A DNA stretch of 64,000 nt from Leucoraja erinacea. Its lineage: Eukaryota. The notes beneath the pieces are model-generated. The model had not been told where the DNA came from. It worked only from the letters and a program-made list of their open reading frames with translations, and ran no database searches. The stretch covers positions 16,058,001 through 16,122,000 of the forward strand of contig NC_073381.1 in NCBI RefSeq assembly GCF_028641065.1, written 5' to 3'. The translations under genes were made by a program, and so were the position numbers. Shown one piece after another: positions 11,201 through 61,804 of the stretch (position 1 is its first letter; every line of letters begins with the position of its first letter).

Positions 11201-14200
11201 TATCGTTTTTTTTATTTTCTTTGGACAAATCTTTGGAATATGTTTTTATTTTGAAAAATTTTGCAGAGCAAAGTCCAAAGAAAGAAGGATGATTTGCTTT
11301 GGACCACGATGTCAGGGAATAGTTGGAGTTCAAGGCTGGTTTTGAAATGTTTTATTTATTTATTTTTATTTTTATTTATTAGAAGTACAGTAAATTACAG
11401 TAGTACAAGCCACATATATCTTATTACATTTGTTGTACCCCTTCATTTTTTAAGCTTGAAGGAAAGATAGAAATAAAGAAAGTAGAGAAAGTGAGAGAAA
11501 GTTGTGTTAGTGTAAAGAGTGAATTAAAAAAAAACCCATGAGTAAGGGAAAAGAGTTAAGAAATAGACCTTAGAAAAGAAAGAAAGAAAAAAACAAAAAA
11601 AACCAAAAGCTCTATTATGAAAAACGCGCAAAAGGGTTATACCAACTTCGTATTTTTCTTCCCCCCTTACCAGATCCTGACACCATTTATTTTTTGAAGT
11701 ACTGATGCACCTTATATTTGTATTCAGTCGATAAATGCAGACCACGTCTTTTGGAAGTGGTCTGATTTGCCTGCTAGGAGGAGTCTCATATCATATGTTT
11801 TGAAATGTAATGAAAACTTTTTGCCCTTTCCCTGCTTAAAAACACAGGAGTTCCAAAAAGCACTCGGAGCAAAACATTCTGTATGTGACACAGCAGTAAG
11901 GACGGGCCGCTCCTTGAAGGAGAAGACAACTTTAGTAGATGATCACCAGAAGCTCGATGACATGTTGAGTGAACTGAGGGACAAGTGGGACACAGTGTGC
12001 GGGAAGTCAGTGGAAAGGTAAAGAAAACCAACTCGGAAAGCATTCGGTCCAAAGCAGGTTGCCTTCTCTGATCTCAATTGTGACTCTAAATAATGTCTGA
12101 ATAAATTGCGCTGGCAATGAATGAAAATATCACTAAGTTGGTGAGTAGGGCGGCATTGAGGGAACTGATGAAATTAAGTACACCATTTACCACAGTGTGT
12201 AGGTTAGAACTAATGTATGAGCGATTTTAAACTCTTTTTTCAATGCAATTGTGTCCATTTGCTTGTTAAAGATCCCTTCTCATGAATGGTGGTTTTTTTC
12301 TCAAAAATCAATTAGAAAATCTGGGAAGTGTGACATTTCTGAGCAGTGAGAATGTCAAACAATTTCCAACTTCTAAAGTTGACAAATAGATAAATCTCCC
12401 CAAAGTAATAAATATGGTTAAAGTTGTCCAAATTCAGAGGTGAGCACAGGTCTGAACGTGAAATATTAGATTCAAAACAGAAAAGCCTCAGAGACTGCAG
12501 GTACATTCTTTGATCCTGACTCCATGCAGTCGCAGGAATGATAAAAGAGTCTGAAAACTTTCTTGATGATTTTTGGCAAGATTGTGATGTTTGTATTGCT
12601 GCTCCTTTTGTACATCCTCAGTTCACCCCACTGGCGTTTGACCACCTATCCCCATTGTCTTGTTTCACACACAAACTCATCACCTTATCTGTCTACAGCT
12701 GCTTTGGAAAAGACATTTTGCTGTGCAAATGCTTAATTGTGTAATGAAAAGTACACTATCAATTGTTTATGTTGGACATGGGTTATTTTGGGTGAGTTAT
12801 CACTAAATGGGGAGCACAGACTCAAAGTGATTAGTTGAAGGATGGAGGTACATTCTTTGTAGTCACCCAAAGGGTAGTAGATGTCTGGAGCTTACTGCTG
12901 GATAGCGTGGAAGAGACAGACATCTTCTTCATGTTTAAACAGAGTTTTTCATATACTTGAAGAGATGTGACCTGCAGGGCCATGGACCAAAGTGGTCATT
13001 GTGTTGGGTAGCTCTTTTGTGAATAGCACAAGCACAATGGGCTGAATGATCATCTGTATTGTATATTTTCTGTCCTTCTAAAAGAAGATTATAATTTTGT
13101 TTTATTTGAAGCCAAGATCTAGAATTAGCCGAAAGTGTCCTGTTATGACAAGGGTGGCACAGTAGTAGAGTTGCTGCCTTACAGTGCCAGAGATCCGGGT
13201 TCGATCCTGACTATGGGTGCCGTTTTATACAGAGTTTAACGTTCTCCCTGTGACCCCGGGTGCTCCAGTATCCTCCCACATTCCAAAGACATAGGTTAAT
13301 TGGCTGCTGTAAATTGTCCATAGTAGGTAGTGTAGAACTAGTGTTTAAGAAGGAACTGCAGATGCTGGAAAATCGAAGGTAGAACTAGTGTATGGGTGAT
13401 TGCTGGCCGGCATGGACGGTGGGCCGAAGGGCCAGTTTCCACGCAGTATCTCTAAACTAAACCGACTAAAGTATAGACCAATTACCTCACAATGTTATAT
13501 CCCAAATCTATATATATATTTTTTTTTAATGTTATATTTTTATTAGAAGCAGTGTGCAAAAGTACAAGCCACGGCATGTGACATAATTCATTTATTGTAC
13601 GTCTTCCATTTTAATTTGAACAAAAATGAAATAGAAAAAGAGAGATAGAGCAAGAAAGAAAGAAAGTGAAAGAGAGAGTGAATGTGTAAAAATAGAACCC
13701 CTAAACTACCAAATGAGTGTAGTCACAGAGTGAGTAAAAACTTAAAAAAAAAAAAAAAGACAAAAACGAAAAATAATTTAAAAAAAATAAAAAAATGTGT
13801 TGATATACCTGCTTCATTTCTGCTACAGAAGGTAGTTGAGGCCAGTTCATTGGCTATATTTAAGAGGGAGTTAGATGTGGCTCTTGTGGCTAAAGGGATC
13901 AGGGGGTATGGAGAGAAGGCAGGTACAGGATACTGAGTTGGATGATCAGCCATGATCATATTGAATGGCGGTGCAGGCTCGAAGGGCCGAATGGCCTACT
14001 CCTGCACCCATTTTCTGTGTTTCTATTTCTCACCACACCCATCACCCAGTCCGTAAATCGGTTTAATATATATAATTCGAATGCCAGTTTGTCAATTATT
14101 CTTGAAAAGGCTTATTTAGAAAGTAATCCTTTTGTGATCTGTATCTGGGATCAGTCTAATCACAAACCAATTCACTTTCTTTGCGGAGGTGTATTTCCAA

Positions 14201-39003: not shown

Positions 39004-42000
39004 TCTCCTCGCAAGCATAAATAGGAAAACAAAAACTTTTCCTTTGTTGTGACATAGGGAATCCAACATGCTTCTTAGTAGGTACACAAAAATGCTGGAG
39101 AAACTCAGCGGGTGCAGCAGCATCTATGGAGCGAAGGAAATAGGCAACGTTTCGGGCCAAAACCCTTCTTCAGACTAATGGGGGGTGGCGAGGAGAATGC
39201 TTCTTTGTAGATTCTTTCTGACTAGACTTAACCCCTGGAGTAGTAATCAATTCCACCAGCTTTGCAAGTGAAGCTACAACTGTTTACAAACACTGTTATA
39301 TATTAAAACTAAAGTTGCTGTGACTAATTTTCTTTTTCTTCATGTTCCCTTCCATGACTTAGTTCTTCTTGGGAAATCAGGTACAGAACAACATAAATGT
39401 CTGATGTATTTTACCTGTTGTGTTGTGTGCTGTGGGACAGTAACTGCTGCTTTGTGGCGTTCAGCCTCTAAACCAATTGGGGACAGCGGCTTTTCCAACC
39501 TGTTGCCCAGCAGTTTACGTTTTTCAATGTTGGGTGTTTCCACTGTCATTATGCTATGGGTTTGTGCTGCTCATTTATCATTTAATCATTCGCCTCTTCA
39601 AATCGGCTGCTTTAAAGCGAGGTGGGGGTGGAGACATAGAGCTTGCAACTGCAAAAATAAATGCTTGATGCAAAGCCAATCATTACAGTCTGCAAGAGAA
39701 AATCACGAGCAAGATTGTTTGTTAACACCCACAAGTATAAAGTGCTGTTTACATTTCTCGTGTTTTCCTCCCTTGTAGTTTGGCGACTCCCAGCAGTTGC
39801 GGTTAGTCCGCATCCTACGCAGTACAGTGATGGTTCGTGTTGGCGGAGGGTGGATGGCCTTGGATGAGTTTTTGGTGAAAAATGACCCCTGCAGAGGTAG
39901 GTTTTGGTTGGTTCGACCAGCCACCTGCTTGGGCAGCACAAGCTCGCCCTTGTGGTCTAATGTAGAGCCTCTTCATAAGAAGGCACATTCATGTCTGTAC
40001 AAAATGATGATGGATTATTTCTCGATAGAGGTACAAGCAGGCAGCAGTGCATTGAAATGATTGGCATCAATGAGTTGGAGCGATGTATAGTGTCGGCAAC
40101 TCCCGACAGGATGTATCCCTGCAGATTTCAACTCGTGGTCCACTCGTCTCACTCCCAAAGCTTAACCATTGATTACCCAGTGTGTTACATTGTCATGGAA
40201 CAACACATTCTCTAGCTGAAGCAAACAGATTCCTGCTTCCCCCATTGAATGATACATGGCTCTCGGGCAAATTGACAGTTTTCCTATCTCGTTCGTTTTT
40301 CAAATTTAAACAATCAAAGAAAAAAAAGGGTGCAGTGTGGCGTCAGCCTAAACACGGGCCACTCATGCTCGAACCCTCGTCAGGAGATACGAGGGCGGGC
40401 GCGTGACGTCATGGGCTAGGGGGAGTGTAAGGGGAAGGCTAGGGCTAGGGGGAATCTGAATCTGAGTGTCCTGGTACTTAAGGTTATCTCACCTTGAGGA
40501 GTCAACCTGTAGCTGAGCCCGAGAGAACAACCTCGCTCAGCTACAGCAACAACGTAATATAGTTAGCGCACCAACCTAACGTGCCACCACTGAATAAACG
40601 ACTCCTTGAACCGGCCTGACGTCTCCCCTTTATTCACCACGTTTGGTGCCGCTACAGCAGCATATTACTTTTTAGGCCTTGCAGTCTTGTTCTTCCAGCA
40701 ATTCTGTGGAGATTCTGCAATTCGGTCTCATTTTCAAGAGACGATGTGTGAAAATAAATCATAGTCAACAAAGGATCTTTCATGGGGATTGTATCTGTGT
40801 GAAATGCATTAAGGTATTAGCGGATCCTACCGTTGCGATTTAACAACCGATCAACATCGTAAATCTAAGCTCTGGTACGCAGAATGTCCACCTGCATAAA
40901 ATTGAGAATTAATTACCGTAGTTATAAGCAGATATAAAGCAATAATACTCATGTTGTTTTATTAGCAAAAATTAGAGCTTTGATCGGACATATGACATGA
41001 GTAAGTAAGTAAGTTTATTGGCCAAGTCTTCACATACAATGAATTTGCCTTGGTGCTCCGCCCACAAGTAACAACATGACAATGAGCGTGAAATATTTAT
41101 AGTTTAGATGTTTTGAGAAATTCATATTAGTTCTTCAAATGATTTATCTGTTTTATCTGCTCTGTGCTTGGTCCTATTTCCTACTAAAAGTTTCTCCTCT
41201 TTTTCTATTAATGTGTTGCAATCCCTTTATCATTTCTTCCAGTTCATCATCATGGAAGTAAAATGTTGCATTCGGAATCAAACTCTTCAATTACCAGTCA
41301 GTCTCCTATAGGTTGGCAAACCTCCTGTCTCTTTTCCTTCACCATTGTGCTTTCCTACTCTGTATGGCTTAACCCTCCTCGTGGCTTCCAGCAGGCTTTG
41401 TGCTTTTTTAATTAAAAAAAAGAGAACTGTAATCCAGTGCGCTTTGTTTCTTTTAACCAACTACAAAATGATCACCCACTTTGAAATGCATGTGAAGTTG
41501 CTTATATGACTTTTTTCTTTTACCCGCAGTAATACTCACTGCAAGTAAGTGGTCACCTTGTCTGATATTGTAGCATCCTCCCAAGTGGAATGTATACATC
41601 TGTTCTGCCTGAAAGTGGTGTGCTGTTTTAAGCTTCTGCACAAATATTTTTGGAATGGGGGTTTGCTTTAGTGGGTCCCTGGCCTTCTTTTAAACTGGCT
41701 GCATGAGGTTAATAGACTCCGAACTCTTGCGTAGTTTTTAACATGAAACTGAACTGAAACCTTTAGTACTATCAACATTTTTTTTTTTTTTTTTATCCCC
41801 TTCCATTTAAGTTTTGAAAATTTGCTGGGCTAATTCATCTCGTGTTGCATACGTACACCAGCCTAATTGTTGAGTTGCTGGTATGGATAGGCTTTCAATT
41901 CAGATTTCAGTATTATTCCATCATCTGCTGACTATTTTTTTTAACCGTCCTGTTCATTAACCCCCCCCCCACGACCCCCTTCATACTTTCTCTTGCCATT

Positions 42001-45000
42001 GCAAGTATGCCTTCTGCTTGTGAAGTTGTGGATGATTTACAGCTGATTTTTTTTTTTTTTTTTTTTTCTTCTTCATTCCTTTCTTTCAGCCAAGGGCAGA
42101 ACAAACGTCGAGTTGCGTGAGAAGTTCATTCTTCCCGAAGGCATGAGTCAATCCATGGCTGCCTTCCGGACACGAGGGCGAAGGTCACGGCCGTCATCAA
42201 GGGCAGCTTCACCCAACAGATCAGCATCCAGTGCCAGCCAAAGTGTTTCAGTCCCACCAGTTGTTACAAGTACTCCTCCTAAGGTAGTGTTGAGCGGCAC
42301 AGTTCAATCCTCAGTGTTTCCTGCGATTGATAATGTTACCAATGTAGCTTAGAATGGCGCTGCTCTAACCCAGCAACCAGCTCATTGCTATTGTTCCTAT
42401 TCAGCAGCCTAATGATAGTGCAGTGCCTATCTCCCTAATGTATTGATAATTCATTGCATTTGTATAATACTGTCTTAGCCACTTTAATATTTATTTCAGG
42501 TTTGTTGCTTCAGTTTTTGTGTGAGGTTGGTTATGGAGTATTGACAAAGTGTTTAAGAAGGAACTGCAGACGGTGGAAAATCAAAGGTACACAAAGATGC
42601 TGGAGAAACTCAGCGGGTGCAGCAGCATCTATGGAGCGAAGGAAATAGGCAACGTTTCGGCACGAAACGTTGCCTATTTCCTTCGCTCCATAGATGCTGC
42701 TGCACCCGCTGAGTTTCTCTAGCATCTTTGTGTACCATGGAGTATTGACAAGTGTGCATTTAATATAACACATCACGGGAAGATTAACGCATGCCAGACA
42801 TAGATTGCTTACTAACTTGTAAGGGATTCACATTGTCTTGATCATTGCATTTTTAATTTTACTTTGACCTTATTACACTTCCTTTTCCATGGCATTGTTA
42901 TTTCCTGGTCATATTACTTTATTGTTTCAATTTCCATTCATTTTCAATGTATCCTTGTTTCATACAGACACCCCAACATTTAATCCGCAATTATGATAAA
43001 CCATGGTTGACAAACAGCAAAACATCAAGTGCTTATAAATCACCAGAGTCCCCAGAAGGTCGGGTCCCATCTCCAGAGGTATAGTACGGTGAAGTACTCC
43101 CAGCTTAAGAGACGAGTGTTGGTAGTGGTCAACATATCAAAAGTGCATTTCGTTTATAGACTGGTTAGCTGTCTTGGATAGGTCTTTATTAAAAAGTTTA
43201 TTGTTCAGAAAATTCTCCCAGGGGAAAATTTACCTTCTCCCAAGGAAGAATTTTGGGCTGCTTTTCAGGATTCCGAATGCATTTGTCCCTGTTGTACACA
43301 ATAAATTGAAATTGGAAAATTGAATCACATTTGGAAGTAGTGAATACTAAATACTCTCCTGAATCATTCACAAATTTCTTGTTTCATCTTTTAGAATAAA
43401 AGGGATAAAATTGGTGATCAGAGGCACTTGTACTTTAGTGACAAATCACTGAGATGCCACAATCTTCTATTTTTAGAGATTTGTTGTTGGGAATGTTTTA
43501 AATTGCCCAATTCATTGATCAAAGTTACCAAATAGTTCACTTTATGAACACTTCTTTCGTGCAGTAGGGTGTTTGTTTATTTAACTACTTCAATCTGTAA
43601 ATGAAATTGACTTTTATTACCTATCAGTAATTTGCACAACTCATTGTCTAATAATAGGAGCTGTCAGCATTCCAAAGTCCAAGATCCAGAATATTTAACA
43701 CTGAATCCTGAAAAAGAGCCACTTAATATTTATCTGTAACACTAGAGAGGCTTCCCCCCCCCCCCTCCCAAATCCCTCCAACCCACACTTAATATATCCT
43801 GACCTCTAGAAGCTAACATTCATTTATCTTTCCAGACTATCTCTCTTTTCTAAGATTTTCAGTCTTGCAAAACTAACTCCTCTGTTCATGTCATCCTGTT
43901 TCACTGCACAGATGGAAGGAATCTTGTGACTGTGTTGTTCTTTCCTTTTTTTTTCCATATCTTAAAATCTTCTTCTCCTGTCACCTTGTGCATGATTGAG
44001 TAGTTTCTGTGCATGTAATTCCACGCTGGGTCATGGTACCAGGTTGGTTTCTGAGATCACAGGTTTTGATTATTTTTCTTCTTGGAACTTCTTCTAAAGA
44101 AAAAACTTTATTCTGCTTTGAATACGTGGGGTAAGGATGTAGATTTCTTTAAGTGTTTTTGTAATGCTATGCCACAGTTTTAGAGCCAGCGAAGAAATTG
44201 GCATTAATCCGTTTTGCATTGCGTTAAGCCATATTTTAAAAAAAGGTTGCATTTACTTTGTATCATTGAAGGCATCAAGTGTTTTACAGCCACTGGTTGA
44301 AGTGCTGTTGTCAAGTAGGATACTTGGAGCTAGATTGTAATTATGGCTTCAGAAATATGATGTTGGATCATTGAAGATCAATCGTGATCAAGTAAACCAT
44401 TAACAATTACAGCACTGAAACAGTTGAAAGTGCTGTTGTCAAGTAGCCTGCATACTAACCCTGGAGCTAGATTGTTAATTATGGCTTCAGAAAGCTATTC
44501 CATGCTACCATCTGGATGATCAATCGTGCATCGTTAATATTGAATTGAATGGCTGTGCTAGCTCAAAGGGCCGAATGGCCTACTCCTCCACCTATTTGCT
44601 ATGTTGATTCAGCCTGATTATCTGTTCCTATTACTCTGCAGTATAAATATTGGCAAAGCCACTGTTGATAACACCCTTCCTTTGAAATCATGGCTGCGAA
44701 CTATTTTTCACTTCTCTCTGATGGAACCAAGTCCTGACATAATGTCTTGTGAGAAGGCTTCCAACTCTGACAGGCAACACTTCCTCAGCACTATTGTAAT
44801 CACCCAGATCTTTGCCCAAGTGTGTACAGTGGGACCTGAACCAGCAATCATTTTCCCCAGTGGGGGAGAGTGAGCTTTTTCTAATCTTAACCAAAGTCAC
44901 CACCATAGATCAAGGAAACACCACATGATTCACCTGTACAGTGCATTCAGAAAGAATTCAGACCCCTTCACTTTTTCCACATTTAGCTTATTCTAAAATG

Positions 45001-48000: not shown

Positions 48001-50494
48001 TTGTTCTGTACTTCCCCAACATCGGGAACAATCTTCTAAATTCTAGCGAGTACAAACCGAGTCTTCAAAGTTCCTTTGAAGCTTCATTTAATTGGCTTTT
48101 TTTTTTTTAAATCTCCACATTTCTGTTTCTATCTAATTATTAAGTTCTTATTTTTATTTGATTTCAATTTAAATTGTTTGCCTTGTCATCGATTGTTTGC
48201 CGATGATCTCTGAGCATCACAGAAATGTAGAGAAAATTGAGTGTTGGATTTGAGAACTAGAGGTCATTGGGAAATAAATGAAGTCAATGCAAACAATTTA
48301 TATGTAAAATCAAATAAGAATAATAACTTAATCATTTGCTGGATACAGAAATGTGGAGAACATATTTAGTTTTGGAATTGAGCATCAGAGATCATTGGGA
48401 AGAACTGCATCGGCCTTCTGGATGCTTGGAACCTCTGGACGGCTGTGATGTGGTTGCCAGATGTGTTCCATCAGGCTTTGCACAACCCCTACTCTATTGG
48501 GGTCCATGTTAGGGGCTGACACAAAGTATGGGTCTGGTCTAATATTGTGAAACAAAAGTGATCGGTAATTGGACAGGCAGTTATATAAATGGGCATAGCA
48601 GAATCACAGTGAACAGCTGTTGTTTGAAATAAATTAGAATGGTAGCTATGAGCTACTATTGATGAATTGTGAGTCTGGGAGATGTCATTGTAAATTTTCA
48701 TCAAGCTCTTGTTGAACTTTCTAAGGAGGCAAGGGACAAAGAAATCACACTGGGAGTGAAAGGTGACCAGAGCAAGGAGGAGCAATGGGACCCCTAATGG
48801 GAAGCGTGGGTAGGGATGGGAATGATAAATGGGATCGAATATGTTCAGGGGCCCTGATATCACTCATAGAGGGGAGCCATTGTTCAGTAAAAATAAACAT
48901 AATATGGGGAAAAATGGAACAGAATCCTTAACCAGAACATGGTCAAGATGTCTGTGGGATTTATTTATTTTCTAGAGAGTTAAAGGTTCAAGAGTTCTAG
49001 AGAGTTAAAGAGTAAAAGAACTGGGGCGTTAAAATATGGGCCTTAGAAAGTGAGCAAAGGACTGCGATGCAAAGCTACTAAAAGTTTGAACATTAGCAGG
49101 AGACAGTATAGGTATAATCATTTATGTGTTGGAAAGGGGACTATAGAAGAGCACCTAAACAGTTCTTGAATAAAGGAGGTCTGAAGAATGGTCCTGATAC
49201 GAAACATCACACATCCTTTTCCCCCAGAGATGCTGTGTGACCCGCTGAGTCACTTCAGCAATTTGTGTCTATCTTGAATAAATAATGTTCACATAGCCAG
49301 GATGCCCCTTCACCTGTGCAAAACCTGCAGAGAGGTGTTCAGTGTAAGGGCAAGTTTGAAATGGATGAGGATTGATTAGACCATGATTTAATTTCGTTTT
49401 AAATGGAGGGGTCTGTTCTGGTGGAGAATGGAACTGATAGGGTTTTGGAAGTCCTCAGTGAAAAGCAGACTCTGAGGAACAGGGATTTGGAACTGCTGTA
49501 TGGGGGATGGGGGGGGGGGGGGGTGGGGGAGGGGGTGGGGGGGGGGAGTGGTGAAGGGGGGGGGGGGGGGGGGGGTTACTCTCCTGAGCTGTTGCCTGAA
49601 ACTAGGTATGTTTAACTATATCTCTTGCGTCACTGAATATAAAAAATAACTAAAAAAACAAATAAATAAAACCTTAAAGATAAATAAATAAATAGATGGA
49701 TACGTGAGTAAATAAATAGACAGATAAATAGATAAATGAATCAATCAATAAATGGATGGATAAATAAATAGATGGGCAGATAAATAAATAAATAAATAAA
49801 TAGATAAATAAATAGATGGATAAGTGAGTGAGTGAATTATGCAATTGTGTTTATGTAGTTGTCCTTAGTCATTTGATTGTACGATACGATATGATAGAAT
49901 AGAACTTTGTTTATCCCAGGAGGGAAATTGATCTGCCAACGATCATTAAACACAAGATACCTGAAACATGAAATTAAAGTGACGAATGGAAAGGATTGGG
50001 GATGTCAGGGGTGGGGGGGGAGAGGAGAGTCAGTCTACCCCACGACAGAAGGGGGAGAAGTTATACAGTTTGATAGCCACCTGGAAGAAGGATCTCCTGT
50101 GGCATCCTGTACAGCATCTTGGTGAAACCAGCTTGTGGGATGTGAGATGTAATCTGCATTTCATGTCGTAAACAATGGTTTAACTCATTTAACCTACGAT
50201 CTATGTGTATTCAATCCAGCCTTAGAGTCAAGAAAAGTCCCAAGCCGTCCCACAAGCCGCGCGGGAAGCAAGACTGGCAGCAGAGCAAGCAGTCGCCGGG
50301 GGAGTGATGCTTCCGATTTTGACATTTCAGATATCCAGTCTGTGTGCTCGGATGTTTCGGAGGCAGTGCCTGAAACTAGCAGATCAGGGTCACGAGCAGG
50401 ATCTCGGCCATCTTCAGCGAAAGCATCGAAAATCCCGACACCATCAAGGAGGTCTCCAGCAACTAGCAAACTGAGTGCAACCTCCAAAAGATAG
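2089..50494 (+). CDS. DST: Dystonin (BPAG1, spectraplakin), 3' part of a multi-exon gene; 5' part lies upstream of the window
   Basis: Spliced translation gives spectrin repeats, EF-hands ([26 protein letters not shown]), GAR domain ([27 protein letters not shown]) and GSR tail. Residues such as [38 protein letters not shown] and the ..SKR* end match DST as I recall it rather than MACF1. All exon phases are consistent. Confidence 0.95.
2620..4325 (-). mobile_element. CR1-clade LINE, 5'-truncated, frameshifted ORF2 (RT)
   Basis: ORFs with [48 protein letters not shown] region; internal deletion near 2890; microsatellite tail. Confidence 0.93.
5588..5749 (+). CDS. DST: DST exon ([11 protein letters not shown]...KLTERK)
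   Basis: cag|GAG...AAG|gtgcca, 162 nt. Confidence 0.92.
6108..6420 (-). mobile_element. Rex1/Babar-like LINE 3' fragment
   Basis: (caagtt)n tail, tttattgtca...aatgaaattctt terminal motif, reverse-strand [15 protein letters not shown]-type C-terminus. Confidence 0.75.
7131..7286 (+). CDS. DST: DST exon ([10 protein letters not shown]...FQIDEHK)
   Basis: cag|GTT...AAG|gtaaat, 156 nt. Confidence 0.95.
7390..7596 (+). CDS. DST: DST exon ([11 protein letters not shown]...ARKRAKQ)
   Basis: tag|GTT...CAG|gtatgg, 207 nt, after a 103-nt intron. Confidence 0.95.
7845..8995 (-). mobile_element. CR1-clade LINE 3' part (RT C-terminus and 3'UTR)
   Basis: [38 protein letters not shown] motifs; (ccatataa)n tail. 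Confidence 0.93.
9275..9548 (-). mobile_element. HE1-like tRNA-derived SINE
   Basis: tRNA-like head ggtggcacagcggtagagttgctgc, central V-like domain, LINE-like tail gggcctgtttc...ctaaactaaa. Confidence 0.85.
9847..10280 (-). mobile_element. Rex1/Babar-like LINE 3' end
   Basis: QRVV..AER..G...[18 protein letters not shown]...[13 protein letters not shown] peptide; (agtca)n tail. Confidence 0.85.
10587..10706 (+). CDS. DST: DST exon ([16 protein letters not shown]...QLANHK)
   Basis: tag|TTC...AAG|gtgatg, 120 nt. Confidence 0.95.
11345..11792 (-). mobile_element. L1/Tx1-like LINE 3' end
   Basis: A-rich tail (tttatt on +); reverse-strand [22 protein letters not shown] resembles an L1 ORF2 C-terminus; related tail at 13520-13800. 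Confidence 0.55.
11848..12017 (+). CDS. DST: DST exon ([10 protein letters not shown]...GKSVER)
   Basis: cag|GAG...AG|gtaaag, 170 nt, ends phase 2. Confidence 0.95.
13152..13462 (+). mobile_element. HE1-like SINE with a small pLTR-derived insertion (13345-13378)
   Basis: A-box ggtggcacagtagtag, B-box ggttcgatcc, tail gggccgaagggcc...ctaaactaaa; insertion flanked by gtagaactagtgt duplication. Confidence 0.85.
13825..14028 (+). mobile_element. CR1 3' tail, (ttctatgt)n subfamily; near-identical copies at 14866-15073(-), 21766-22016(+), 23262-23550(+), 35913-36160(+), 47704-48062(-), 60798-61034(+)
   Basis: gaggccagttcattggctatatttaagagggagttagatg...ctactcctgcacc repeated almost verbatim. Confidence 0.88.
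15085..15370 (-). mobile_element. HE1-like SINE
   Basis: Reverse complement of the same head, V-domain and tail. Confidence 0.82.
18232..18391 (+). CDS. DST: DST exon ([14 protein letters not shown]...LIDAHK)
   Basis: cag|A CAG...AAG|gtattg, 160 nt. Confidence 0.95.
18959..19153 (+). CDS. DST: DST exon ([10 protein letters not shown]...LEQALKQ)
   Basis: cag|GTC...CAG|gtaaga, 195 nt. Confidence 0.95.
19241..20128 (-). mobile_element. GC-rich non-autonomous element with Rex1-type 3' end (copy 1), nested in a HER1-like tail
   Basis: (agagtc)n tail; shares hairpins and sub-repeats with 24644-25480 and 34215-34905; internal (CAG)n at 19755-19808. Confidence 0.75.
21049..21177 (+). CDS. DST: DST exon (AEEFHSAVH...LINQHK)
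   Basis: cag|GCT...AAG|gttgga, 129 nt. Confidence 0.95.
22575..22890 (-). mobile_element. Degenerate Rex1-like LINE 3' ORF fragment
   Basis: [22 protein letters not shown]...HCLGKA..I...FHP.HSL type peptide. Confidence 0.7.
22972..23115 (+). CDS. DST: DST exon (EFVKKLEEK...QARFEE)
   Basis: aag|GAG...GAG|gtaact, 144 nt. Confidence 0.94.
23880..24390 (-). mobile_element. Degenerate RTE-clade LINE fragment
   Basis: Resembles an RTE RT segment on the reverse strand; no intact ORF. Confidence 0.4.
24450..24638 (+). CDS. DST: DST exon (VTAWSKQHQ...LIAEHQ)
   Basis: cag|GTA...CAG|gtaatc, 189 nt. Confidence 0.94.
24644..25480 (-). mobile_element. GC-rich non-autonomous Rex1-tailed element (copy 2)
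   Basis: (caata)n tail begins at +6 of the exon 24450-24638 donor; same internal blocks as copy 1. Confidence 0.75.
26151..26277 (+). CDS. DST: DST exon ([15 protein letters not shown]...EKGRS)
   Basis: cag|ACG...TCA A|gtgagt, 127 nt, ends phase 1. Confidence 0.94.
26543..26980 (+). mobile_element. HE1-like SINE interrupted by a short LINE tail (26718-26855)
   Basis: ggcggcacggtggcgtagcggtagag A-box, ggttcgatcc B-box. Confidence 0.85.
28091..28140. repeat. (GT)n microsatellite
   Basis: Directly visible from 28111, preceded by TA-rich sequence. Confidence 0.9.
28287..28447 (+). CDS. DST: DST exon (RKRLPT...ETKNPR...LDRLEE)
   Basis: tag|GG...GAG|gtgagc, 161 nt. Confidence 0.94.
29558..29720 (+). 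CDS. DST: DST exon, EF-hand 1 (LREFANFDF...[20 protein letters not shown])
   Basis: cag|CTG...TCA A|gtgagt, 163 nt. Confidence 0.96.
29776..30220 (-). mobile_element. Bipartite RTE-derived non-autonomous element (5'UTR fused to 3' end)
   Basis: Reverse strand begins with an RTE-type 5'UTR (ccttctcgtggtcggggagcttgtgcgtctcagtgacccctagagctatg) and ends with [21 protein letters not shown] plus (taag)n tail. Confidence 0.7.
31660..31965 (+). mobile_element. HE1-like SINE, near full length
   Basis: A/B boxes, V-domain, ctaaactaaacta tail. Confidence 0.88.
32343..32497 (+). CDS. DST: DST exon, EF-hand 2 (KFPTSRLEM...[13 protein letters not shown]...KIEDE)
   Basis: cag|AG...GAG|gtatac, 155 nt. Confidence 0.96.
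32754..32828 (+). CDS. DST: DST exon, GAR domain N-part ([25 protein letters not shown])
   Basis: tag|GTG...AGG|gtgagt, 75 nt. Confidence 0.96.
34215..34905 (-). mobile_element. GC-rich non-autonomous Rex1-tailed element (copy 3), 5' end cut by a CR1 tail at 34910-35067
   Basis: (aatcag)n tail, ccaccacagtga...cactgtgatgg hairpin, poly-C segment as in copies 1 and 2. Confidence 0.65.
36315..36850 (-). mobile_element. CR1 LINE 3' end
   Basis: [24 protein letters not shown]...FFSQRVV..WNSLPQ ORF and 3'UTR. Confidence 0.9.
37188..38446. mobile_element. Non-autonomous Tc1/mariner-superfamily (pogo/Tc2-like) DNA transposon
   Basis: TA|CTGTATTTCCCGGCAATGAAGACGC ... GCATCTTCATGACCGGGAAATATGG|TA imperfect TIRs with TA TSD. 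Confidence 0.75.
39080..39190 (-). mobile_element. Penelope pLTR-derived repeat with intact minimal hammerhead core (39143-39176)
   Basis: Reverse strand AGT CTGAAGA A GGGTT TT GGCCC GAAAC GTT GCC. Confidence 0.75.
39363..39380 (+). CDS. DST: DST 18-nt microexon FFLGNQ within the GAR domain
   Basis: ACTAAT at 39323, pyrimidine tract, tag|TTC TTC TTG GGA AAT CAG|gtacag; matches the FFLGNQ insert of vertebrate DST/MACF1. Confidence 0.9.
39779..39896 (+). CDS. DST: DST exon, GAR domain C-part ([11 protein letters not shown]...KNDPCR)
   Basis: tag|TTT...AGA G|gtaggt, 118 nt. Confidence 0.96.
40336..40656 (+). mobile_element. Solo LTR (Gypsy-like), 321 bp
   Basis: TGTGGCG...CGCTACA termini, 4-bp TSD GCAG (40332-35 and 40657-60), AATAAA at 40593, TGACGTCA at 40404. 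Confidence 0.8.
41243..41311 (+). CDS. DST: DST cassette exon ([23 protein letters not shown])
   Basis: cag|TT...ATA G|gttggc, 69 nt, phase 1/1; resembles the mammalian DST insert [17 protein letters not shown]. Confidence 0.88.
   Translation, partial: FIIMEVKCCIRNQTLQLPVSLL
42090..42283 (+). CDS. DST: DST exon ([13 protein letters not shown]...TSTPPK)
   Basis: cag|CC...AAG|gtagtg, 194 nt. Confidence 0.95.
42548..42736. mobile_element. Penelope pLTR-derived hairpin insertion with 15-bp TSD
   Basis: TSD atggagtattgacaa at 42533-47 and 42737-51; 74-bp inverted arms. Confidence 0.85.
42968..43078 (+). CDS. DST: DST cassette exon ([18 protein letters not shown]...VPSPE)
   Basis: cag|ACA...GAG|gtatag, 111 nt, phase 0/0; [12 protein letters not shown] motif recalled from DST long isoforms. 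Confidence 0.88.
44939..45346 (-). mobile_element. Tc1-like (IR/DR type) transposon end with transposase C-terminus
   Basis: TA|CAGTGCATTCAGAAAG..TTCAGACCCC TIR, inner DR aagtattcagaccc at ~45089; reverse-strand VNVLDWPSQ...[20 protein letters not shown]...[19 protein letters not shown]. Confidence 0.88.
45346..45517 (-). mobile_element. HE1-like SINE 5' part
   Basis: tRNA-like head and V-domain on reverse strand. Confidence 0.82.
46994..47117 (+). CDS. DST: DST penultimate exon ([23 protein letters not shown]...RVP)
   Basis: tag|GTA...CCA G|gtcagt, 124 nt. Confidence 0.93.
49660..49830. repeat. (TAAA)/(TAGA) compound tetranucleotide repeat; poly-G tract upstream at 49502-49575
   Basis: Directly visible. 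Confidence 0.9.
50220..50494 (+). CDS. DST: DST last coding exon: GSR repeats, SKIP EB1-binding motif, stop
   Basis: cag|CC TTA GAG TCA AGA AAA...[23 protein letters not shown]...ASKIPTP...TSKR TAG; alternative in-frame acceptor at 50226. Confidence 0.94.
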
Positions 50495-51570: not shown

Positions 51571-52064
51571 TTTTACACCATCTTTCCATCCGAGAAACCC
51601 ATGGGGAGAAGACTGGGCATTGAGCCTGAGGGAGATATTAAAAGAGAAAAAAGGTTTGGCCAAACATTGATATTTGAGGATCTTAAAGGAGGTCCATAAG
51701 ATCCAGGACGGTTACCCAAATGTGAGACCAAGCAACTGAAAGCACGATAGTAATGCGTGGGGTAAAAGAAAGGTGCAGGAATCAAGAATGAAGACTTTGA
51801 GAAGAACTGGACAATGGTTATTTGTTTGTGATTTGGACATGGCTGACTATTTGTTCCTATCCTCAAGAAGATGGAGATGAGCCCCTTCCCTGAACTGTTG
51901 AAGTACATGTGTATACATATTTATATATTTCCAAAGATAGATACAACAAGCTCTGGAGTAACTCAGCAGGTCAGACAGCACCTCTGGTGAAAACCAATAG
52001 GTGACATTTCGGGTCGAGACCATTTTTCAGACTGCGAGTCGGGGCAAAGATCAATGAGAGATAG

Positions 52065-52890
52065 ATGTTTAAGAAAGAACTGCAGATGCTGGAAAAATCG
52101 AAGGTAGAATGTAGATTGGTTTATGCATGCAATGTCAAAAAGCTGGAGAGGCAGCATCTATGGAGCGAAAGAATGGGTGACGTTCGGGTCGAGACCCTTC
52201 TTCAGACTGATGTGGGGGGGGGGGGGGGGGGGGAAGAAGAAAGGAAGAAGTGGAGACAGTAGGCTGTGGGAGAGCTGGGGAGGGGGAGGAGGGAGAAAGC
52301 AGGGACTACCTGAAATTGGAGGTCAATGTTCATACTGCTGGGGTGTAAACTACCCAAGCGAAATATGAAGTGTTGCTTCTCCAATTTGCGGTGGGACTCA
52401 CTCTGGCCATGGAGGAGGCCCAGGACAGAAAGGTCGGATTCGGAATGGGAGGGGAAGTTGAAGTGCTGAGCCACCGGGAGATCGGGTTGGTTATTGCGAA
52501 CTGTGCGGAGGTGTTGGGTGAACCGATCGCCAAGCCTGCACTTAGTTTCACCGATGTAGAGCAGTTGACACCTAGAACAGCGGATGCAATAGATGAGGTT
52601 GGAGCAGGTGCAGGTGAACCTCTGCCTCACCCGGAAAGACTGCTTAGCTCCTTGGATGGAGTCAAGGGAGGGAGGTAATGCGACAAGTGTAGCATTTCCT
52701 GCGGTTGCAAGGGAAAGTAGCAGGGGATGGGGTGGTTTGGGTGGGAAAGGACGAATTGACGGAGGGAGTGGTCTGCGGAAAGCCGGAAGGGGAGATGGGA
52801 AGATGTGGCCAATGGTGGGATCCCGTTGGAGGCACCTCATCCTGGGTGCAGATGTAACGTGGACTGAGGAATTGGGAGTAGGGGATAGAG
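52065..52890 (-). mobile_element. Penelope-like element: GIY-YIG endonuclease region plus pLTR with hammerhead core
   Basis: FTCTCSNLIYCIRCSRCQLLYIGETKCRLGDRF..HL...LPVAQHFN...HRKLEKQHFIFRLGSL; hammerhead-like motif at 52176-52209. Confidence 0.9.
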
Positions 52891-53963
52891 GACGGAGGTG
52901 TTCCAAACCAGGGCATCGTGGATGTCCTCATTCTTTAGGGAATGGGGGTTCCAGTCTTCTACTATAGATGAGGCTCTCACCAGGGTCTCCTCTACATCCC
53001 GTAGCTCCGCCGGGACCCGTTAATCTTTACTCTTTGTTTCCTGTCTGCCAACCAATTTTCTATCCATGTCAGCACTCTACTCCCAATACCATGTGCCCTA
53101 ATTTTTCCCACTAATCTCCTATGTGGGACTTTACCAAATGCTTTCTGAAAGTCCAGGTACACTACATCCACTGGCTCTCCCTTGTCCATTTTCCTAGTTA
53201 CATCCTCAAAAATTTCCCGAAGATTAGTCAACCATGATTTCCCCTTTGTAAATCAATACTGACTCAAACCGATCCTGTTACTGCTATCCAAATGTGCCGC
53301 TATTTCATCTTTTATGATTCACTCCAGCATCTTCCCCACCACCGATGTCAGGCAAACTGGTCTATAATTCCCTGTTTTCTCTCTCCCGCCTTTCTTAAAA
53401 AGTGGGATAACATTAGCTACCCTCCAATCCACAGGAACTGATCCTGAATCTATAGAACATTGGAAAATTAACACCAATGTGTCTACAATTTCTAGAGCCA
53501 CTTCCTTAAGTACCCTGGGATGCAGACCACCAGGCCCTGGGGATTTATCAGCCTTCATTTCCTGCCTAATGTGGATTTCCTTCAGTTCCTCTGTCACCCC
53601 AGATCCCCTGGTCACTAGAACATCATGCAGATTGTTTGTGTCCTCCTTAGTGAAGACAGATGCAAAGTACCTGCTCAACCCATCTGCCATTTCCATGTTC
53701 CCCATAATAAATTCATCTTTTTCAGTCTTCAAGGGTCCAACTTTGGTCTTAACTATTTTTTTCCTCTTCACATACCTAAAGAAGCTTTTACTATCCTTCT
53801 TTATATTCTTGGCTAGCTTACCTTCATACTTCATCTTTTCTCCCTATATTGCCTTTTTAGAAGGTTCGGCCCGAAACGTTGCCTTTTTCCTTCGCTCCAT
53901 AGATGCTGCTACACCCGCTGAGTTTCTCCAGCTTTTTAGTGTACCTTTGCCTTTTTAGTTATT

Positions 53964-55555: not shown

Positions 55556-56010
55556 TTTCTGTTGCTCTTTAAACATTACCCAATCCTCTTGCTTCCAGCT
55601 CATCTTTGCTATGTTGTACTTCTTCTCTTTTATTTTTATAATGTCCCTGACTTCCCTTGTCAGCCACGATCGCCCCTTACTCCCCTTGGAATCTCTTCTC
55701 CTGTTTGGAATGAACTGATGCTGCATCTTCTGTATTATTCCCAGAAATACCTGCCATTGTTGTTTCACTGTCATCCCTGCTAGGATATCTATCCAGTCAA
55801 CTTTAGCCTGCTCCTCCTTCATGGCTTCATAGTCCACTTTGTTCTACTGTCAATGTTCATACCACTGGGGGTAAACTGCCCAAGCAAAATCTGAGGTGCT
55901 GCTCCTCCAATTTGCAGTGGGACTCACTCTGGCCATGGAGGAGGCCCAGGACAGAAAGGTCGGATTTGGAATGGGAGGGAGAGTTGAAGTGCTGAGCCAC
56001 CGGGAGATCG

Positions 56011-56972
56011 GTGCTGGGACCGCAGCTATTTACAATATATATTAATGATTTAGTTGAAGGGATTCAAAGTAACATTAGCAAATTTGCAGATGACACAAAG
56101 CTGGGTGGCAGTGTGAACTGTGAGGAGGATGGTATGAGAATTCAGGGTGACTTGGACAGTTTGGGTGAGTGGGCAGATGCATGGCAGATGCAGTTTAATG
56201 TGGATAAATGTGAGGTTATCCACTTTGGCTGCAAAAACAGGAAGGCAGATTATTATTTAAATGGTGTCAAGTTGGGAAAAGGGGAAGTACAATGGGATCT
56301 GGGGGTCCTTGTTCATCAGTCAATGAAAGAAAGCGAATGGCATATTGGCCTTTATAACAATAAGAGTTGAGCATAGGAGCAAAGAGGTCCTTCTGCAGTT
56401 GTACTTGGCTCTAGTGAGACCACACCTGTAGTATTGTGTGCAGTTTTGGTCTCTAAATTTGAGAAAGGACACCCTTGCTATGGAGGGAGTTCAGCGTAGG
56501 TTTACAAGGTTAATTCCTGGGATGGTGGGAATTATGTTGATAGAATGGAGCGGCTGGGCTTGTATACTCCGGAATTGAGAAGGATGAGAGGGAATCTTAT
56601 TGAAACAAATAAGATTATTAAGGGTTTGGACATGCCAGAAGCAGGAACATGTTCCCGATGTTGGGGGAGTACAGAACCAGGGGCCGCAATTTAAGAATAA
56701 GGGGTAAGGCATTTAGAACGGAGATGTGGAAACACTTTTTTACACAGAGAGTTGTGAGTCTGTGGAATTCTCTGCCTCAGAGGGCAGTGGAGGCCGGTTC
56801 TCTGGATACTTTCAAGAGATAGCTTTATAGGGCTCTTAAAGATAGCAGAGTCAGGGGATATGGGGAGAAGGCAGGAACGGGGTACTGATTGTGGATGATC
56901 AACCATGATGACATTGAATGGCGGTGCTGGCTCGAAGGGCCGAATGGTCTACTCCTGCACCTATTGTCTATT
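56011..56972 (+). mobile_element. CR1 3' half, degenerate
   Basis: VLGPQLFTIYIND, SKFADDTKLGG; (tctattg)n tail. Confidence 0.88.
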
Positions 56973-57190
56973 GACTTCTCTAATTTCAGGTAGTTCTTGC
57001 TCTCTCCCTCCTTCCTCTCCCCTTCCCAGCTCTCCCACAGCCTACCGTCTCCGCATCTTCCTTTCTCCTTCCCGCCTCCCCACCCCCACCCCCACATCAG
57101 TCTGAAGAAGTGTCTCGACCTGAAACATCACCCATTCCTTCACTCCATAGATGCTGCCTCACCCGCTGAGTTACTCCAGCTTTTTGTTAC
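56970..57190 (+). mobile_element. Penelope-like 3' end/pLTR with degenerate hammerhead core
   Basis: Reverse complement of 52140-52325; cagtctgaagaagtgtctcgacctgaaacatcaccc. Confidence 0.82.
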
Positions 57191-59013
57191 CATTGAGAGA
57201 TATAGATGGTGATAGAGAGAGATATATTGAACAAATGAATGAAAGATATGCAAAAAAAGTTACGACTATAAAGGGAATAGGCCATTGTTAGCTGTGGGTT
57301 AGGTGAAAATGAATTACAGACAATGAGACTCAACAGGACCTATTATTAGTTGATATTAGTTGATATTAGTAACGACGTGGGTAGAGGAGGGAGAAAGAAG
57401 GGTTGCAAGAGTTTTTTGAAGCTGGGTTGTAAGCTGCCCATATTTCCCATAGTTTGTATGATCAACAGGCCCCAGGCTCTTCTGCCCCAGTCTGACTAGG
57501 TAGTGGTCACCGATTTGGAAAGTGAATAAGTACAGTGGAATCTGTAAATTTAGAGATGCAGTTCTGAAACGAGCCCTTCGACCCACCGAATCCGCGCCGA
57601 CCAGCGATCCCCGTACACTAGCATTATCCTACACACAATAGGGACAATTTACAATCGTACCAACCCAATTAACCTACAAATCTGTAAGATTTTGGAGTGT
57701 GGGAAGAAATTGGAGGTAAATATAACACTGGATAGGCACATGGATATGCAGGGAACAGTTGGTCATGGCATCATGTTCAGCACAGACATTGCGGGCTGAA
57801 GGGCCTGTCCCTGTACTATACCGTTCTACTGGAAATGTCTGTTTCAAACATGTCCTATCTCTACCAAATGTTCAACATTCCTATCAAGTCTGTTTGTAAC
57901 TTTCTCTCACTTCATAAAACCAATCCTAATTTTCGCATTGAATGTATGAACATATGCCATACTTCCCAAACTATTTTAATAGAGTGATTATCAGACAACA
58001 CTTGACACTGAGCCACATAAGATTTTAGGACAGATGTGGTTGGAAAAGTGATAGGTTTCAATGAACCTCTTTGTAGGATAGAGGGATTATTGCATATTAA
58101 CTTAAAGTGCATCACTATGGAGCAGAGATTAAAACAGGCTTGCAAAAGGCATAACAATTGGAAAAGTGTAGTGATATCATGAGGCCGATCTGTAGATGGA
58201 TGAAAAAACAAAGATCTGTAGAGGGATGAAAAAACAAATCACGGAAAGTTTGAAATTGCCAGAATCAAAATTAATATATTTCAGGAATCCTGCGGGACCA
58301 TATCATGTTGTTTCCAGTATTATGGCTTAATATCCTTCATATATCGTGGGGTTCAAAACCTGTGGCCTTATTGTCATTTAATGGAAAATCAAGATTAAAC
58401 CTTAATGATTCTTGCAATAAAATCCAGCAAGCTGTGGATTTTAGTGGACATCCACCTGAAATGCAGTTTTAATGTCTTGTGAGAAAAACTCTCATTCATG
58501 CCATGCAACACATGATTCATGCAAATTTGCACTGGCCTATGCTTACAAAGGATGTCCACACACTTAAATTGTCTGAAGCAACTTCTTTCAACTAAAGTCC
58601 AGATATAAAAGATAAGATATGAAACCTTTCTTTGGAATTGGAAGAAGAAATTTATTTTATAAATTGACATAGGGCCTCAACCTGAAATGTAGACAATCGC
58701 TCCAGCAGAATTTCATTGCCCAAATTCCAGCATCCGCAGCCCCTTGTGTTTCTGTGACAATAATTCTTTGGTGCCCTACATTTCAACAGTCAGCATCTTT
58801 CTACATTCATAAAACATTGGCCAACAGCACAATCTCACAGGACAAAAACAATGTAGTCCTGCTGTCATCAACATGTAACAAGCACGTTCTTGTATATGCC
58901 TAACAATAAACCTTGGTTTTTCTCAATAAATCAGTTGTGTAAATGAAAGGCAGCAACCTACAGTATCTCACATTTCATTTGTTTCAAAACATTCATATAC
59001 AGACCATACACTG

Positions 59014-59862: not shown

Positions 59863-61804
59863 AGTGTACAGAGTGGTACACATCGCCCCACATCTGGAAC
59901 ACTCACACTTTACACATTCTCAAACAGATAGAATAGATGTTGTGACTGGCCCCTCCCTCAGATGCCACTCTGATCCCTATCACCAGCTGACCAGGAGAGG
60001 CCAGTCCCCAGCATCAGTCCTGGCTCCAATTAGTTGACATTGCATGATTGAACACCTGAACCTCGTCAGCCTAATCCCAGGCATCCCAGCCAGAGGGAGA
60101 GAGCTGCCTGCTTGTTAGCTGTGTTCCCCTTGAACCACTGGGACAAGCCTCAGACCATTAGTGCCACTGTGTGGTCAAGGCTGAGCTGCTGGAAAGAAGT
60201 CTTAGATGGCCTGTGACTCTACTGAGGCCACGACTGAGATGTTAGTTGCTCCTCCTGCCCACAGACAATGAGGGACTGCACCCGCACACAGAGGCAAAGA
60301 CTGAGCTGCCAGGATAAGCCAAAGACCACCAGTGGTGCTTCTTCAAGCCCCAAAGCTGAGCCGCGAGGATAAGCCTGAGATTGCCACAACTCCTCCTCTC
60401 AGAACAGCACTGAATGGCAGGGGCAAGCCTGAGATCACCAGATGATGAGGGATAGCGCCCCCATGTGGTTCTGGACATTCTTGTTACTGAAAAGAAAACA
60501 TATCACGTGAGTTCACCCTAGTGTGAGTATTGGTGTGGTGACTGCTGAACCTGGCTGCAACCCTGATGCCACAGAGTCCACTGAAAGTTGTTCATGTTAG
60601 CCATAACCCCTAGTGAGCTTTGTTGCACGCTTGTCATCTTATGCCATTTTAGAATCAAGTTTTCAATCTCTAATTATAGCAGATTTTTACTGTGTGGGAC
60701 ATTTTAATAAGCTGGTTTCAAATGTTACGACCCATATTCTGGTCAGAATCCCATTACACATTAAGGCATGAGAAACTCAGCGGGTGTGGCAGCATCTCAC
60801 ACAGAGAGTGGTGAATCTCTGGAATTCTCTGCCACAGAAAGTAGTTGAGGCCAGTTCATTGCTATATTTAAGAGGGAGTTAGATGTGGCCCTTGTTGCTA
60901 AAGGGATCAGGGGGTATGGCGAGAAGGCAGGTACAGGATACTGAGTTGGATGATCAGCCATGATCATATTGAATGGGGGTGCAGGCTCGAAGGGCCGAAT
61001 GGCCTACTCCTGCACTTATTTTCTATGTTTCTATCTATGGAGCGAAGGAAATAGGCAACGTTTCGGGTCAAAACCCTTCTTCAGACTTTCGATTTTCCAG
61101 CATCTGCAGTTCCTTCTAAATACCTTAAGGCATTGTTGCACCAGGTGTAAGATTGTAGAAACTAGGAACTGCATATGCTGGTTCAATTGTGGTTTTACTG
61201 GACACAAAGTGCTGGAGCAATTCAGTGGGTCAGCATCTCTGGAGAACATGGACAGGTGATATTTTGGGTTGGGACTCTTCTTCAGATTGTTCTTTCCAGC
61301 CAACCCAGACTTCCTAAAGTGGCAGCAAGCACCAGGCTTGGGAGATACTGCTAGTCAGCTCAATATCCTTCTAAGTGAGGGTGAACTTTTAACACCCCAA
61401 AATAGCTGACTAAAGCACAACTGTTCTCTTATAGAATTTGGCAAACCTCTCCGACAGACATAAACGGCATCTAGTAATTAACTAAACCAGTCAACAGCCA
61501 GCTAGACACTGCTGCATTGGCAGTATAGGTTGGAAGCACTAAGACCATACTGCTTTGCATGTATAGTTGATCCAGTAGCTACATCATGTCTTTGGCTTGT
61601 CCTCCAAATAATTGCATGAAATTGGCAGTGATAGATTCATCACAAGATAGCACATGGGCTGTCAAGCAGAAGACCAGTATTTTTCCTCAAGCTTAGAAAG
61701 AATTGTTGTAGGGATAATCAACTCTCTCCTTATCAACCCGTCTCTAGACTGACACTGCTGGAGGTTGGGAGAGGATCTCAGCTCATTCACTGTTTGCAGA
61801 GCAT

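What the first reader, a model, noticed from the sequence alone, without database searches (positions are those of the whole stretch)
39143..39176. High-copy short repeat carrying a minimal hammerhead ribozyme (Penelope pLTR-derived, retrozyme-like)
Seen: about 20 copies of a ~100-190 bp repeat (e.g. 1-80, 375-535, 1270-1400, 16690-16800, 25490-25650, 39080-39190, 42548-42736, 49177-49275, 51935-52035, 53861-53946, 57095-57190, 61035-61120, 61165-61290). It matches the end of the GIY-YIG Penelope fragment at 52065-52890. The best copies read GT-CTGAAGA-A-[GGGTY/RCCC stem II]-GAAAC-GTH (39143-39176 -, 61054-61087 -; 52176-52209 - lacks one A of GAAA). Stem II varies while keeping pairing (GGGTT/GGCCC, GGGTT/GACCC, GGGTC/GACCC), and helix III is reduced to the palindrome AC/GT. 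Known: Penelope-like elements carry minimal type I hammerheads in their pLTRs that cleave as dimers. Inference: the ribozyme-bearing end is propagating as its own tiny unit here, with 12-15 bp TSDs at 13332/13379, 42533/42737 and 53849/53947.
Basis: partly seen in the sequence, partly recalled or inferred. Interest (0 to 1): 0.7.

Follow-up and report, generated by a model that had tools for sequence, protein, structure and literature searches.

The report
Penelope leader run-off copies with hammerhead
The repeat is the ribozyme-bearing end piece of a known kind of jumping gene (a Penelope-like retrotransposon); most short copies start just before the ribozyme, not at its cut site, so they are likely by-products copied from the front end of the element's uncut RNA rather than a self-spreading ribozyme element.

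Summary
Real, and a known kind. The motif at 39143-39176(-) is a minimal type I hammerhead in the pseudo-LTR of a Neptune-type Penelope-like element (RT + GIY-YIG ORF, ATG 163 nt downstream, 36-nt 'tail'). There are 377 pieces in 1.064 Mb; 32 look intact, and the catalytic core decays like its flanks. The short unit is discrete, but its 5' end is not the cut site. Of 96 young copies, 54 start at -13..+7 of the core, 0 at the predicted cut (+28) and 20 form a truncation ladder into the ORF. Best reading (0.62): run-off cDNA from the 5' end of uncut element RNA, primed at two internal sites; 34 of 35 inverted pairs use one site per arm. A further observation: 23 of 30 leader-containing copies are mini-tandems consistent with a template jump into ATG+34..+127. 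Some carry two hammerhead segments 200-310 bp apart (retrozyme-like embryos), but the two junctions tested have not amplified. The scan has noted this family many times elsewhere in this genome, including the strong-stop reading.

The parts
39082..39196 (-). Focal insertion, 115 bp: pLTR end from -23 to about +92 of the hammerhead core, no tail; passes the 5' wall by ~15 nt, so probably a 3'-pLTR truncation
39146..39173 (-). Minimal type I hammerhead core: CUGAAGA, extra A, 4-bp stem II (39154-39165), GAAAC, GUU; helix III reduced to the ACGU palindrome; predicted cut 39146/39145
39197..39210 (-). Target-site duplication, left copy (14 bp, 1 mismatch)
39068..39081 (-). Target-site duplication, right copy
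61033..61087 (-). Second intact-looking hammerhead copy, starting at -3; 3' part missing, abutting another repeat; head-to-head with a tail-only arm at 61085-61120(+)
52065..52870 (-). 5'-truncated Penelope-like element: end of ORF, 3' UTR, hammerhead lacking one A of GAAA (C3 at 52205), tail
52322..52642 (-). GIY-YIG endonuclease coding stretch (Pfam PF01541, E 1.9e-4, 22.1 bits, just under the 22.6 cut-off)
13345..13378 (-). Tail-only insertion (34 bp, no ribozyme) between 13-bp TSDs at 13332 and 13379
42548..42736 (.). Head-to-head inverted pair joined inside the GTTTCG/CGAAAC palindrome; one arm with tail, one without; no CUGANGA; 15-bp TSD at 42533/42737
53861..53946 (+). Short copy starting inside the core (no CUGA); 12-bp TSD at 53849/53947
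49175..49271 (+). Older short copy starting at the wall; stem II decayed; 11-bp TSD at 49164/49272
56973..57191 (+). Copy reaching ~130 nt upstream of the core into the 3' UTR; stem II and helix III broken
55849..56011 (-). Isolated fragment of the endonuclease-coding end of the same element

Best explanation
The repeat is the hammerhead-bearing pseudo-LTR of a Neptune-type Penelope-like retrotransposon, and most short copies are likely run-off (strong-stop-like) cDNAs made from the 5' leader of the element's uncut RNA. Shown: the segment lies both after the RT-GIY-YIG ORF and 163 nt before its ATG; copies end at two fixed 3' sites (about +93 and +130); about three quarters of the copies that reach the core stop at -13..+7; none starts at the cut site. 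Inferred: the element's protein nicks both DNA strands and primes reverse transcription at the two internal sites, one per strand in inverted pairs. It then runs off the RNA's 5' end, probably a start site at the initiator-like TCAGT. Long copies come from the downstream pLTR or from tandem or circular RNA. Occasionally the enzyme jumps back to ATG+34..+127 and makes mini-tandems. The dispersed ribozymes are passengers decaying neutrally. The ribozyme would matter only in the full element, likely as a dimer or with protein help.
For: Upstream pLTR + tail + ATG in long copies. 838-aa ORF with RVT_1 and GIY-YIG hits and a CX4CxxC linker. 5' wall: 54 of the 74 young copies that reach +7 stop at -13..+7, 20 pass, and none ends at -14..-75 (binomial p about 4e-53 against an assumed 1/400 per nt hazard). 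TSDs confirm the ends in 25 of 38 solos (null 5 of 746). The same wall appears in older subfamilies, several lacking the adjacent C-run, in 7 of the 8 leader-containing copies that reach +2, and in RNA reads of organism E (loose ends at -7, -5, -3, -2). Genome-wide, 23,131 matches start at -3 against 4,280 at -11. Opposite use of the two 3' sites in 34 of 35 inverted pairs. Two internal initiation sites, the tail and an uncut RNA substrate were shown in vitro for another PLE (PMC11167929). Catalytic G12 in a CpG is kept at 0.65, like the non-catalytic CpG (0.68/0.70).
Against: No transcription start was mapped. The RNA run showed no pile-up of molecule starts, equal depth on both strands over the repeat, and comes from a related organism with most reads 90-95% alike. 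The wall is 15-20 nt wide, not a single base. No excess untemplated G (cap signature) was seen before the wall. About a third of leader-containing copies that reach the wall still pass it (5 of about 14 over; the two sets may share loci), so a strong stop on tandem or circular RNA fits too. The GUU/GUC variant differs between classes (inverted 16 T:2 C; long 4 T:7 C), so some lineages may yield mainly short copies. In D. virilis the start site lies upstream of an intron that ends at helix I (PMC2377424, PMC4209133), not at the ribozyme edge.
Confidence: 0.62

Rival explanations
1. The wall is a reverse-transcriptase stop on long (3'-pLTR, tandem or circular) RNA, caused by the C-rich tract, the TCAG-T-CTGA palindrome, helix I or a bound protein. 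The short copies are then extreme 5' truncations with a hotspot.
For: The young family has an oligo-C run right upstream of -7. Six of 63 head-to-head pairs join symmetrically at the TCAGTCTGA palindrome. Pass rates are similar for 3'-anchored and leader-containing copies. High 5' truncation is general in PLEs (PMC8557442 passages).
Against: The wall is in the same register in subfamilies with other upstream sequence. RTs usually stall before a structure, not after copying it (own knowledge). Four mini-tandem junctions that re-enter at the wall or inside the core have A-rich untemplated linkers, as expected after running off a template end (L253, L265, L272, L251).
Confidence: 0.22
2. Short copies are a SINE-like non-autonomous family: tail-bearing short masters carry an internal promoter, are transcribed from -5, and are remobilised by the PLE protein.
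For: Discrete length and TSDs. Short copies far outnumber leader-containing ones (12,991 against 176 matches to patterns of equal length). Variant skew between classes. pLTRs hold internal promoters and act in cis (PMC2377424, PMC3846280 passages).
Against: Each variant scored also occurs in long copies. No shared host flank. Tails appear in 13 of 38 short and 6 of 20 long copies alike, and a +133 end needs RNA beyond the tail. In the anole element the RNA needed about 55 nt beyond the initiation sites (PMC11167929), which short copies lack.
Confidence: 0.12
3. One reading: a retrozyme-like unit whose ends are set by ribozyme cleavage and circularisation.
For: Intact-looking hammerheads exist (32 of 377). 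Rare mini-tandems with two hammerhead segments exist. Animal retrozymes derive from pLTRs (bioRxiv 10.64898/2026.07.22.740005).
Against: 0 of 96 starts at +26..+30. Copies span the cut site and stop upstream of the core. Most are not tandem. The core is not selectively conserved. Two tested mini-tandem junctions occur at 1 and 3 places genome-wide.
Confidence: 0.04

Closest known systems
Minimal type I hammerheads in pLTRs of metazoan PLEs (Xena, Poseidon, Neptune; Cervera and de la Pena 2014, PMC4209133, text parts 1-2 of 4 read)
   Same: CUGANGA/GAAA core, extra base between A9 and stem II, G10.1-C11.1 pair, palindromic helix III remnant, weak helix I, location in the pLTR, mostly single dispersed motifs tied to truncated PLEs.
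   Different: Stem II is only 4 bp here (7-8 bp in the Schistosoma families). Extrapolated copy number is far higher (about 780,000 pieces, about 66,000 intact-looking) than the 4,000-9,000 motifs reported for coelacanth and Xenopus, counted by another method.
EN+ Penelope-like elements, Neptune clade (Craig et al. 2021, PMC8557442, passages; Arkhipova et al. 2013, PMC3846280, passages)
   Same: RT followed by GIY-YIG with a CX2-5CxxC linker, partial tandems, inverted 5' pLTR, optional 30-40 bp tail, TSDs, palindromes at inverted junctions.
   Different: A sharp 5' wall at the ribozyme edge and a jump window at ATG+34..+127 were not in the passages I saw.
PAc (Poseidon, green anole) in vitro mechanism (Frangieh et al. 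2024, PMC11167929, parts 1-2 of 4 read)
   Same: Two internal initiation sites bounding the tail, both strands extended, uncut RNA as the main template.
   Different: Here the ATG lies downstream of the tail rather than inside stem II; different clade; genomic evidence only.
Non-LTR retrozymes (Cervera and de la Pena 2020, PMC7229834, passages; Li et al. 2026 bioRxiv, parts 1-3 of 5)
   Same: pLTR-derived with a type I hammerhead; the rare mini-tandems here have retrozyme-sized units (about 160-520 bp).
   Different: The bulk of copies are solo or inverted, not tandem; ends are not at the cut site; no circular RNA shown; the mini-tandems tested are not amplified.

Membership tests
Minimal type I hammerhead | CUGANGA and GAAA core with NUH site | tested here: met
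   Focal copy and 61033-61087; invariant in six cluster majorities.
Minimal type I hammerhead | Stem II with G10.1-C11.1 and an extra base after A9 | tested here: met
   4 bp, 87.5% of cells paired in 10 rows; forms with P=0.76 in the focal copy but 0.04 in a young copy with a competing hairpin.
Minimal type I hammerhead | Compensatory covariation | tested here: inconclusive
   Only one-sided changes; score not above shuffles; one genome only.
Minimal type I hammerhead | Palindromic helix III remnant | tested here: met
   ACGU in 4 of 4 copies folded.
Minimal type I hammerhead | Self-cleavage as a dimer or with protein | not testable with these tools
   Needs an in vitro assay.
EN+ PLE (Neptune) | Single ORF, RT then GIY-YIG | tested here: met
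   L119, 838 aa open, RVT_1 E 5e-6 and GIY-YIG E 9e-4, both just under the Pfam cut-offs; L134 RVT_1 above cut-off.
EN+ PLE (Neptune) | CX2-5CxxC linker before the endonuclease | tested here: met
   CNRKKCNTC in L119. The motif is shared with Nematis; no RT tree against references was built.
EN+ PLE (Neptune) | pLTR at both ends, inverted 5' copy, optional tail | tested here: met
Non-LTR retrozyme | Tandem repeats with a hammerhead in each unit | tested here: not met
   17 same-strand neighbours among 377 pieces, mostly partial; none of 23 mini-tandems kept two strictly intact cores.
Non-LTR retrozyme | Unit defined by cleavage | tested here: not met
   0 of 96 starts at the cut site.
Non-LTR retrozyme | Abundant linear and circular monomer RNA | not testable with these tools
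   Only a poly(A) run of a related organism had raw reads.
SINE-like non-autonomous family | Short copies descend from short masters | tested here: inconclusive
   Variants are shared with long copies but skewed; no genome-wide tree.

The most novel reading that the evidence does not exclude
This genome records the Penelope replication cycle at nucleotide scale. The element starts transcription at the ribozyme's edge, primes both strands at two internal sites, runs off as strong-stop DNA, and re-primes 34-127 nt into its ORF. That jump builds ready-made 200-400 bp tandems with two hammerheads, a promoter and the protein-binding leader: a direct birth route for animal retrozymes.
Probability: 0.35. 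Interest if true: 0.65.

Novelty: new member of a known kind. Interest (0 to 1): 0.4.

Why it matters
The ribozyme in a Penelope pLTR is textbook. What the copies add is a large natural experiment on an open question: how PLEs copy themselves and rebuild their end repeats. It yields testable coordinates for the RNA start (-8..-2), the two priming sites (about +93 and +130) and a re-priming window (ATG+34..+127). It also gives candidate first-generation retrozymes (L255, L272, L253). The dispersed ribozymes are unlikely to affect the host: the focal copy is antisense in an intron of a spectraplakin-type gene.

Tried and rejected
Rfam scan: no hammerhead hit; the miRNA hits come from the inverted pair at 42.6 kb. 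Folding z-scores were null (-0.15 to 1.10), uninformative for a motif this small. A permissive all-against-all extension blurred the wall and mixed in inverted arms; it was replaced by reference- and TSD-based ends. 3' splice acceptor at CAG (-4..-2) as the cause of the wall: rejected, because many copies keep -3..-8 and upstream flanks are unique target DNA. A second cut at AUC (-6..-4): rejected by eye, helix I would not pair. Cap-derived extra G: not seen. RNA: no RNA holder listed; the one raw poly(A) run showed no start or end pile-ups, which is no evidence on small or circular RNAs. Four paper searches found no description of the wall or the jump window. Most subscription papers, Repbase, Dfam and all supplements were not seen, so this does not show absence from print. 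A shark and ray genome preprint had no mention of Penelope.

Full report
Observation. I number positions from C3 of CUGA (0 = 39173); the predicted cut falls between +27 and +28. A profile built from 249 copies finds 24 pieces in the window and 377 in 1.064 Mb (the window, 200 kb beside it and 80 stretches of 10 kb on 24 contigs), with none in the reversed control. Scaled to the 2.19 Gb assembly this is roughly 780,000 pieces, an extrapolation. Only 70 of 377 keep the core and 32 also keep stem II and helix III; in the window, 2 of 24. The three TSDs named are exact but flank a tail-only insert, an inverted pair of half-ribozymes and a copy lacking CUGA. The focal copy is a 115-bp insert with a 14-bp TSD. 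It lies antisense in the intron between two GAS2-coding exons of a plus-strand spectraplakin-type gene.

Parent element. The ten best genomic matches extend upstream by about 23, 43, 60, 290, 340, 370, 450, 630 and twice over 1,200 nt, into GIY-YIG and RT coding sequence. L119 has an 838-aa open frame with RVT_1 and GIY-YIG hits and a CX4CxxC linker, which points to Neptune (PMC8557442, passages; no tree built). In copies with the ORF's 5' end, the same segment lies upstream, with the ATG 163 nt after C3. Copies end at about +93 or about 36 nt later, the PLE tail. The repeat is therefore the pLTR. The label 'cartilaginous fish / skate' comes from earlier AI notes, not from my calls.

Ribozyme. 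The anatomy fits the minimal hammerhead of PMC4209133 (parts 1-2 read): extra A after A9, 4-bp stem II with a tetraloop, ACGU palindrome for helix III, and 2+2 bp of helix I. The core is invariant in six cluster majorities, while stem II and helix I change on one side only. That fits selection in active lineages but does not exceed shuffles. Among 177 spanning copies, non-CpG core positions are 0.91 identical, against a median of 0.88 and a top-eleven mean of 0.92 in the flank. G12, in a CpG, is at 0.65, like the non-catalytic CpG at 0.68/0.70. Dispersed copies decay neutrally. Cleavage was not tested; dimer cleavage of such motifs (Lunse et al. 2017) is recalled, not seen.

Is there a discrete unit? 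A 34-mer at the young subfamily's 3' end has 12,991 exact matches. I fetched the places of 97 of the first 100 listed and scored 96 copies. Two pairs look like segmental duplicates, both arms were counted in four inverted pairs, and copies starting after +59 are excluded by design. Twenty start at -76 to -1302, none at -75 to -14, 54 at -13 to +7, 13 at +10/+11 (inversions inside the GTTTCG/CGAAAC palindrome) and 9 at +16 to +58. None starts at +26 to +30. Of 38 solo short copies, 37 start at -8 to +7, and 25 have a TSD at that junction (null 5 of 746). The wall recurs in 101 non-inverted copies of the random sample, where base conservation fades from -1 to -6 and is at background by -7, including subfamilies with other upstream sequence. 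Genome-wide, 23,131 places match -3..+28 and 4,280 match -11..+20 (the patterns differ in stringency). Poly(A) reads of a related organism show the same edge, equally on both strands, with no pile-up of molecule ends. The unit is thus discrete, but bounded by the ribozyme's 5' edge, not its cut.

Mechanism. In vitro, the anole PLE protein extends both nicked strands, initiates at two internal sites that bound the tail, needs RNA downstream of them and mainly uses uncut RNA (PMC11167929, parts 1-2 read). Here 34 of 35 scorable young inverted pairs have the tail on exactly one arm, as expected if each strand primes at a different site (inferred). Priming in the upstream pLTR of an RNA that starts near -8..-2 would give run-off products of about 100 or 135 nt. 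TCAGTC at -5..0 matches initiator consensus (recalled), and pLTRs hold internal promoters (PMC2377424 and PMC3846280, passages). Of 30 copies that contain the tail-to-leader junction, 8 reach +2 and 7 of those stop at -9..+2. Against this reading: no start site is mapped, the wall is broad, no cap G was seen, and some leader copies pass the wall, so a stall on long or circular RNA remains possible (0.22). I wrote the run-off idea in note 44, before the look-up; earlier finding e1-9854223 reads other copies the same way, which is not independent support.

Mini-tandems. The tail-to-leader junction has 176 matches. Of the first 30, 23 read [pLTR part, tail, ORF start] and then jump back to the 3' UTR or the ribozyme and run to a second pLTR end. 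The jump leaves the ORF at ATG+34 to +127 in 22 cases and at +391 in one. Eleven of the 23 have a TSD around the whole structure (null 3 of 600), so they are single insertions. All 23 junctions differ. Five have both segments starting at or near the wall (L247, L253, L255, L265, L272; units 206-308 bp), three of these with A-rich linkers. None keeps two strictly intact cores. Two junctions tested occur at 1 and 3 places. They resemble newborn non-LTR retrozymes (PMC7229834, passages; Li et al. 2026, parts 1-3, which proposes local tandem amplification of a pLTR) but have not spread.

Verdict. A new member of a known kind. The retrozyme reading fails its defining tests (tandem units, cleavage-set ends). 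The copies are informative footprints of PLE replication, already noted repeatedly by this scan; the jump window is the part I did not find in four paper searches. Repbase, Dfam, supplements and most subscription papers were not seen. Interest 0.4.

Noticed in passing
window 18875-40057 (+): Exons of a spectraplakin-type gene (spectrin repeat, two EF hands, split GAS2 domain); the focal copy is antisense in the intron between the GAS2 exons.
   Followed up: partly
L247-L276: 23 of 30 leader-containing copies are mini-tandems with a jump from ATG+34..+127 (one at +391) back to the 3' UTR or ribozyme; some have A-rich linkers.
   Followed up: yes
L006:1511-1553 and young copies: In the young subfamily a GUUUCG/CGAAAC hairpin competes with stem II (P 0.46 against 0.04); 13 of 38 inverted short copies switch strand inside it.
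   Followed up: partly
L066:5016-5196: Three head-to-tail copies of a 42-bp piece covering the ribozyme core up to just past the cut site; possibly a local duplication.
   Followed up: no
L134:140-6528: A long copy with a 2.1-kb inverted arm, a 1052-codon open stretch and an inverted pLTR; both arms end early in the endonuclease region.
   Followed up: no
window 3681-4331, 8455-9015, 36381-36908, 53322-55485, 55996-56367: Several fragments that look like other LINE ORF2 sequences (one RVT_1 hit); the 53861-53946 copy sits inside one.
   Followed up: no
L008:300-1000 (minus strand view): An open frame resembling a class A G-protein-coupled receptor lies about 200 bp from a Penelope fragment (family judged by eye).
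   Followed up: no
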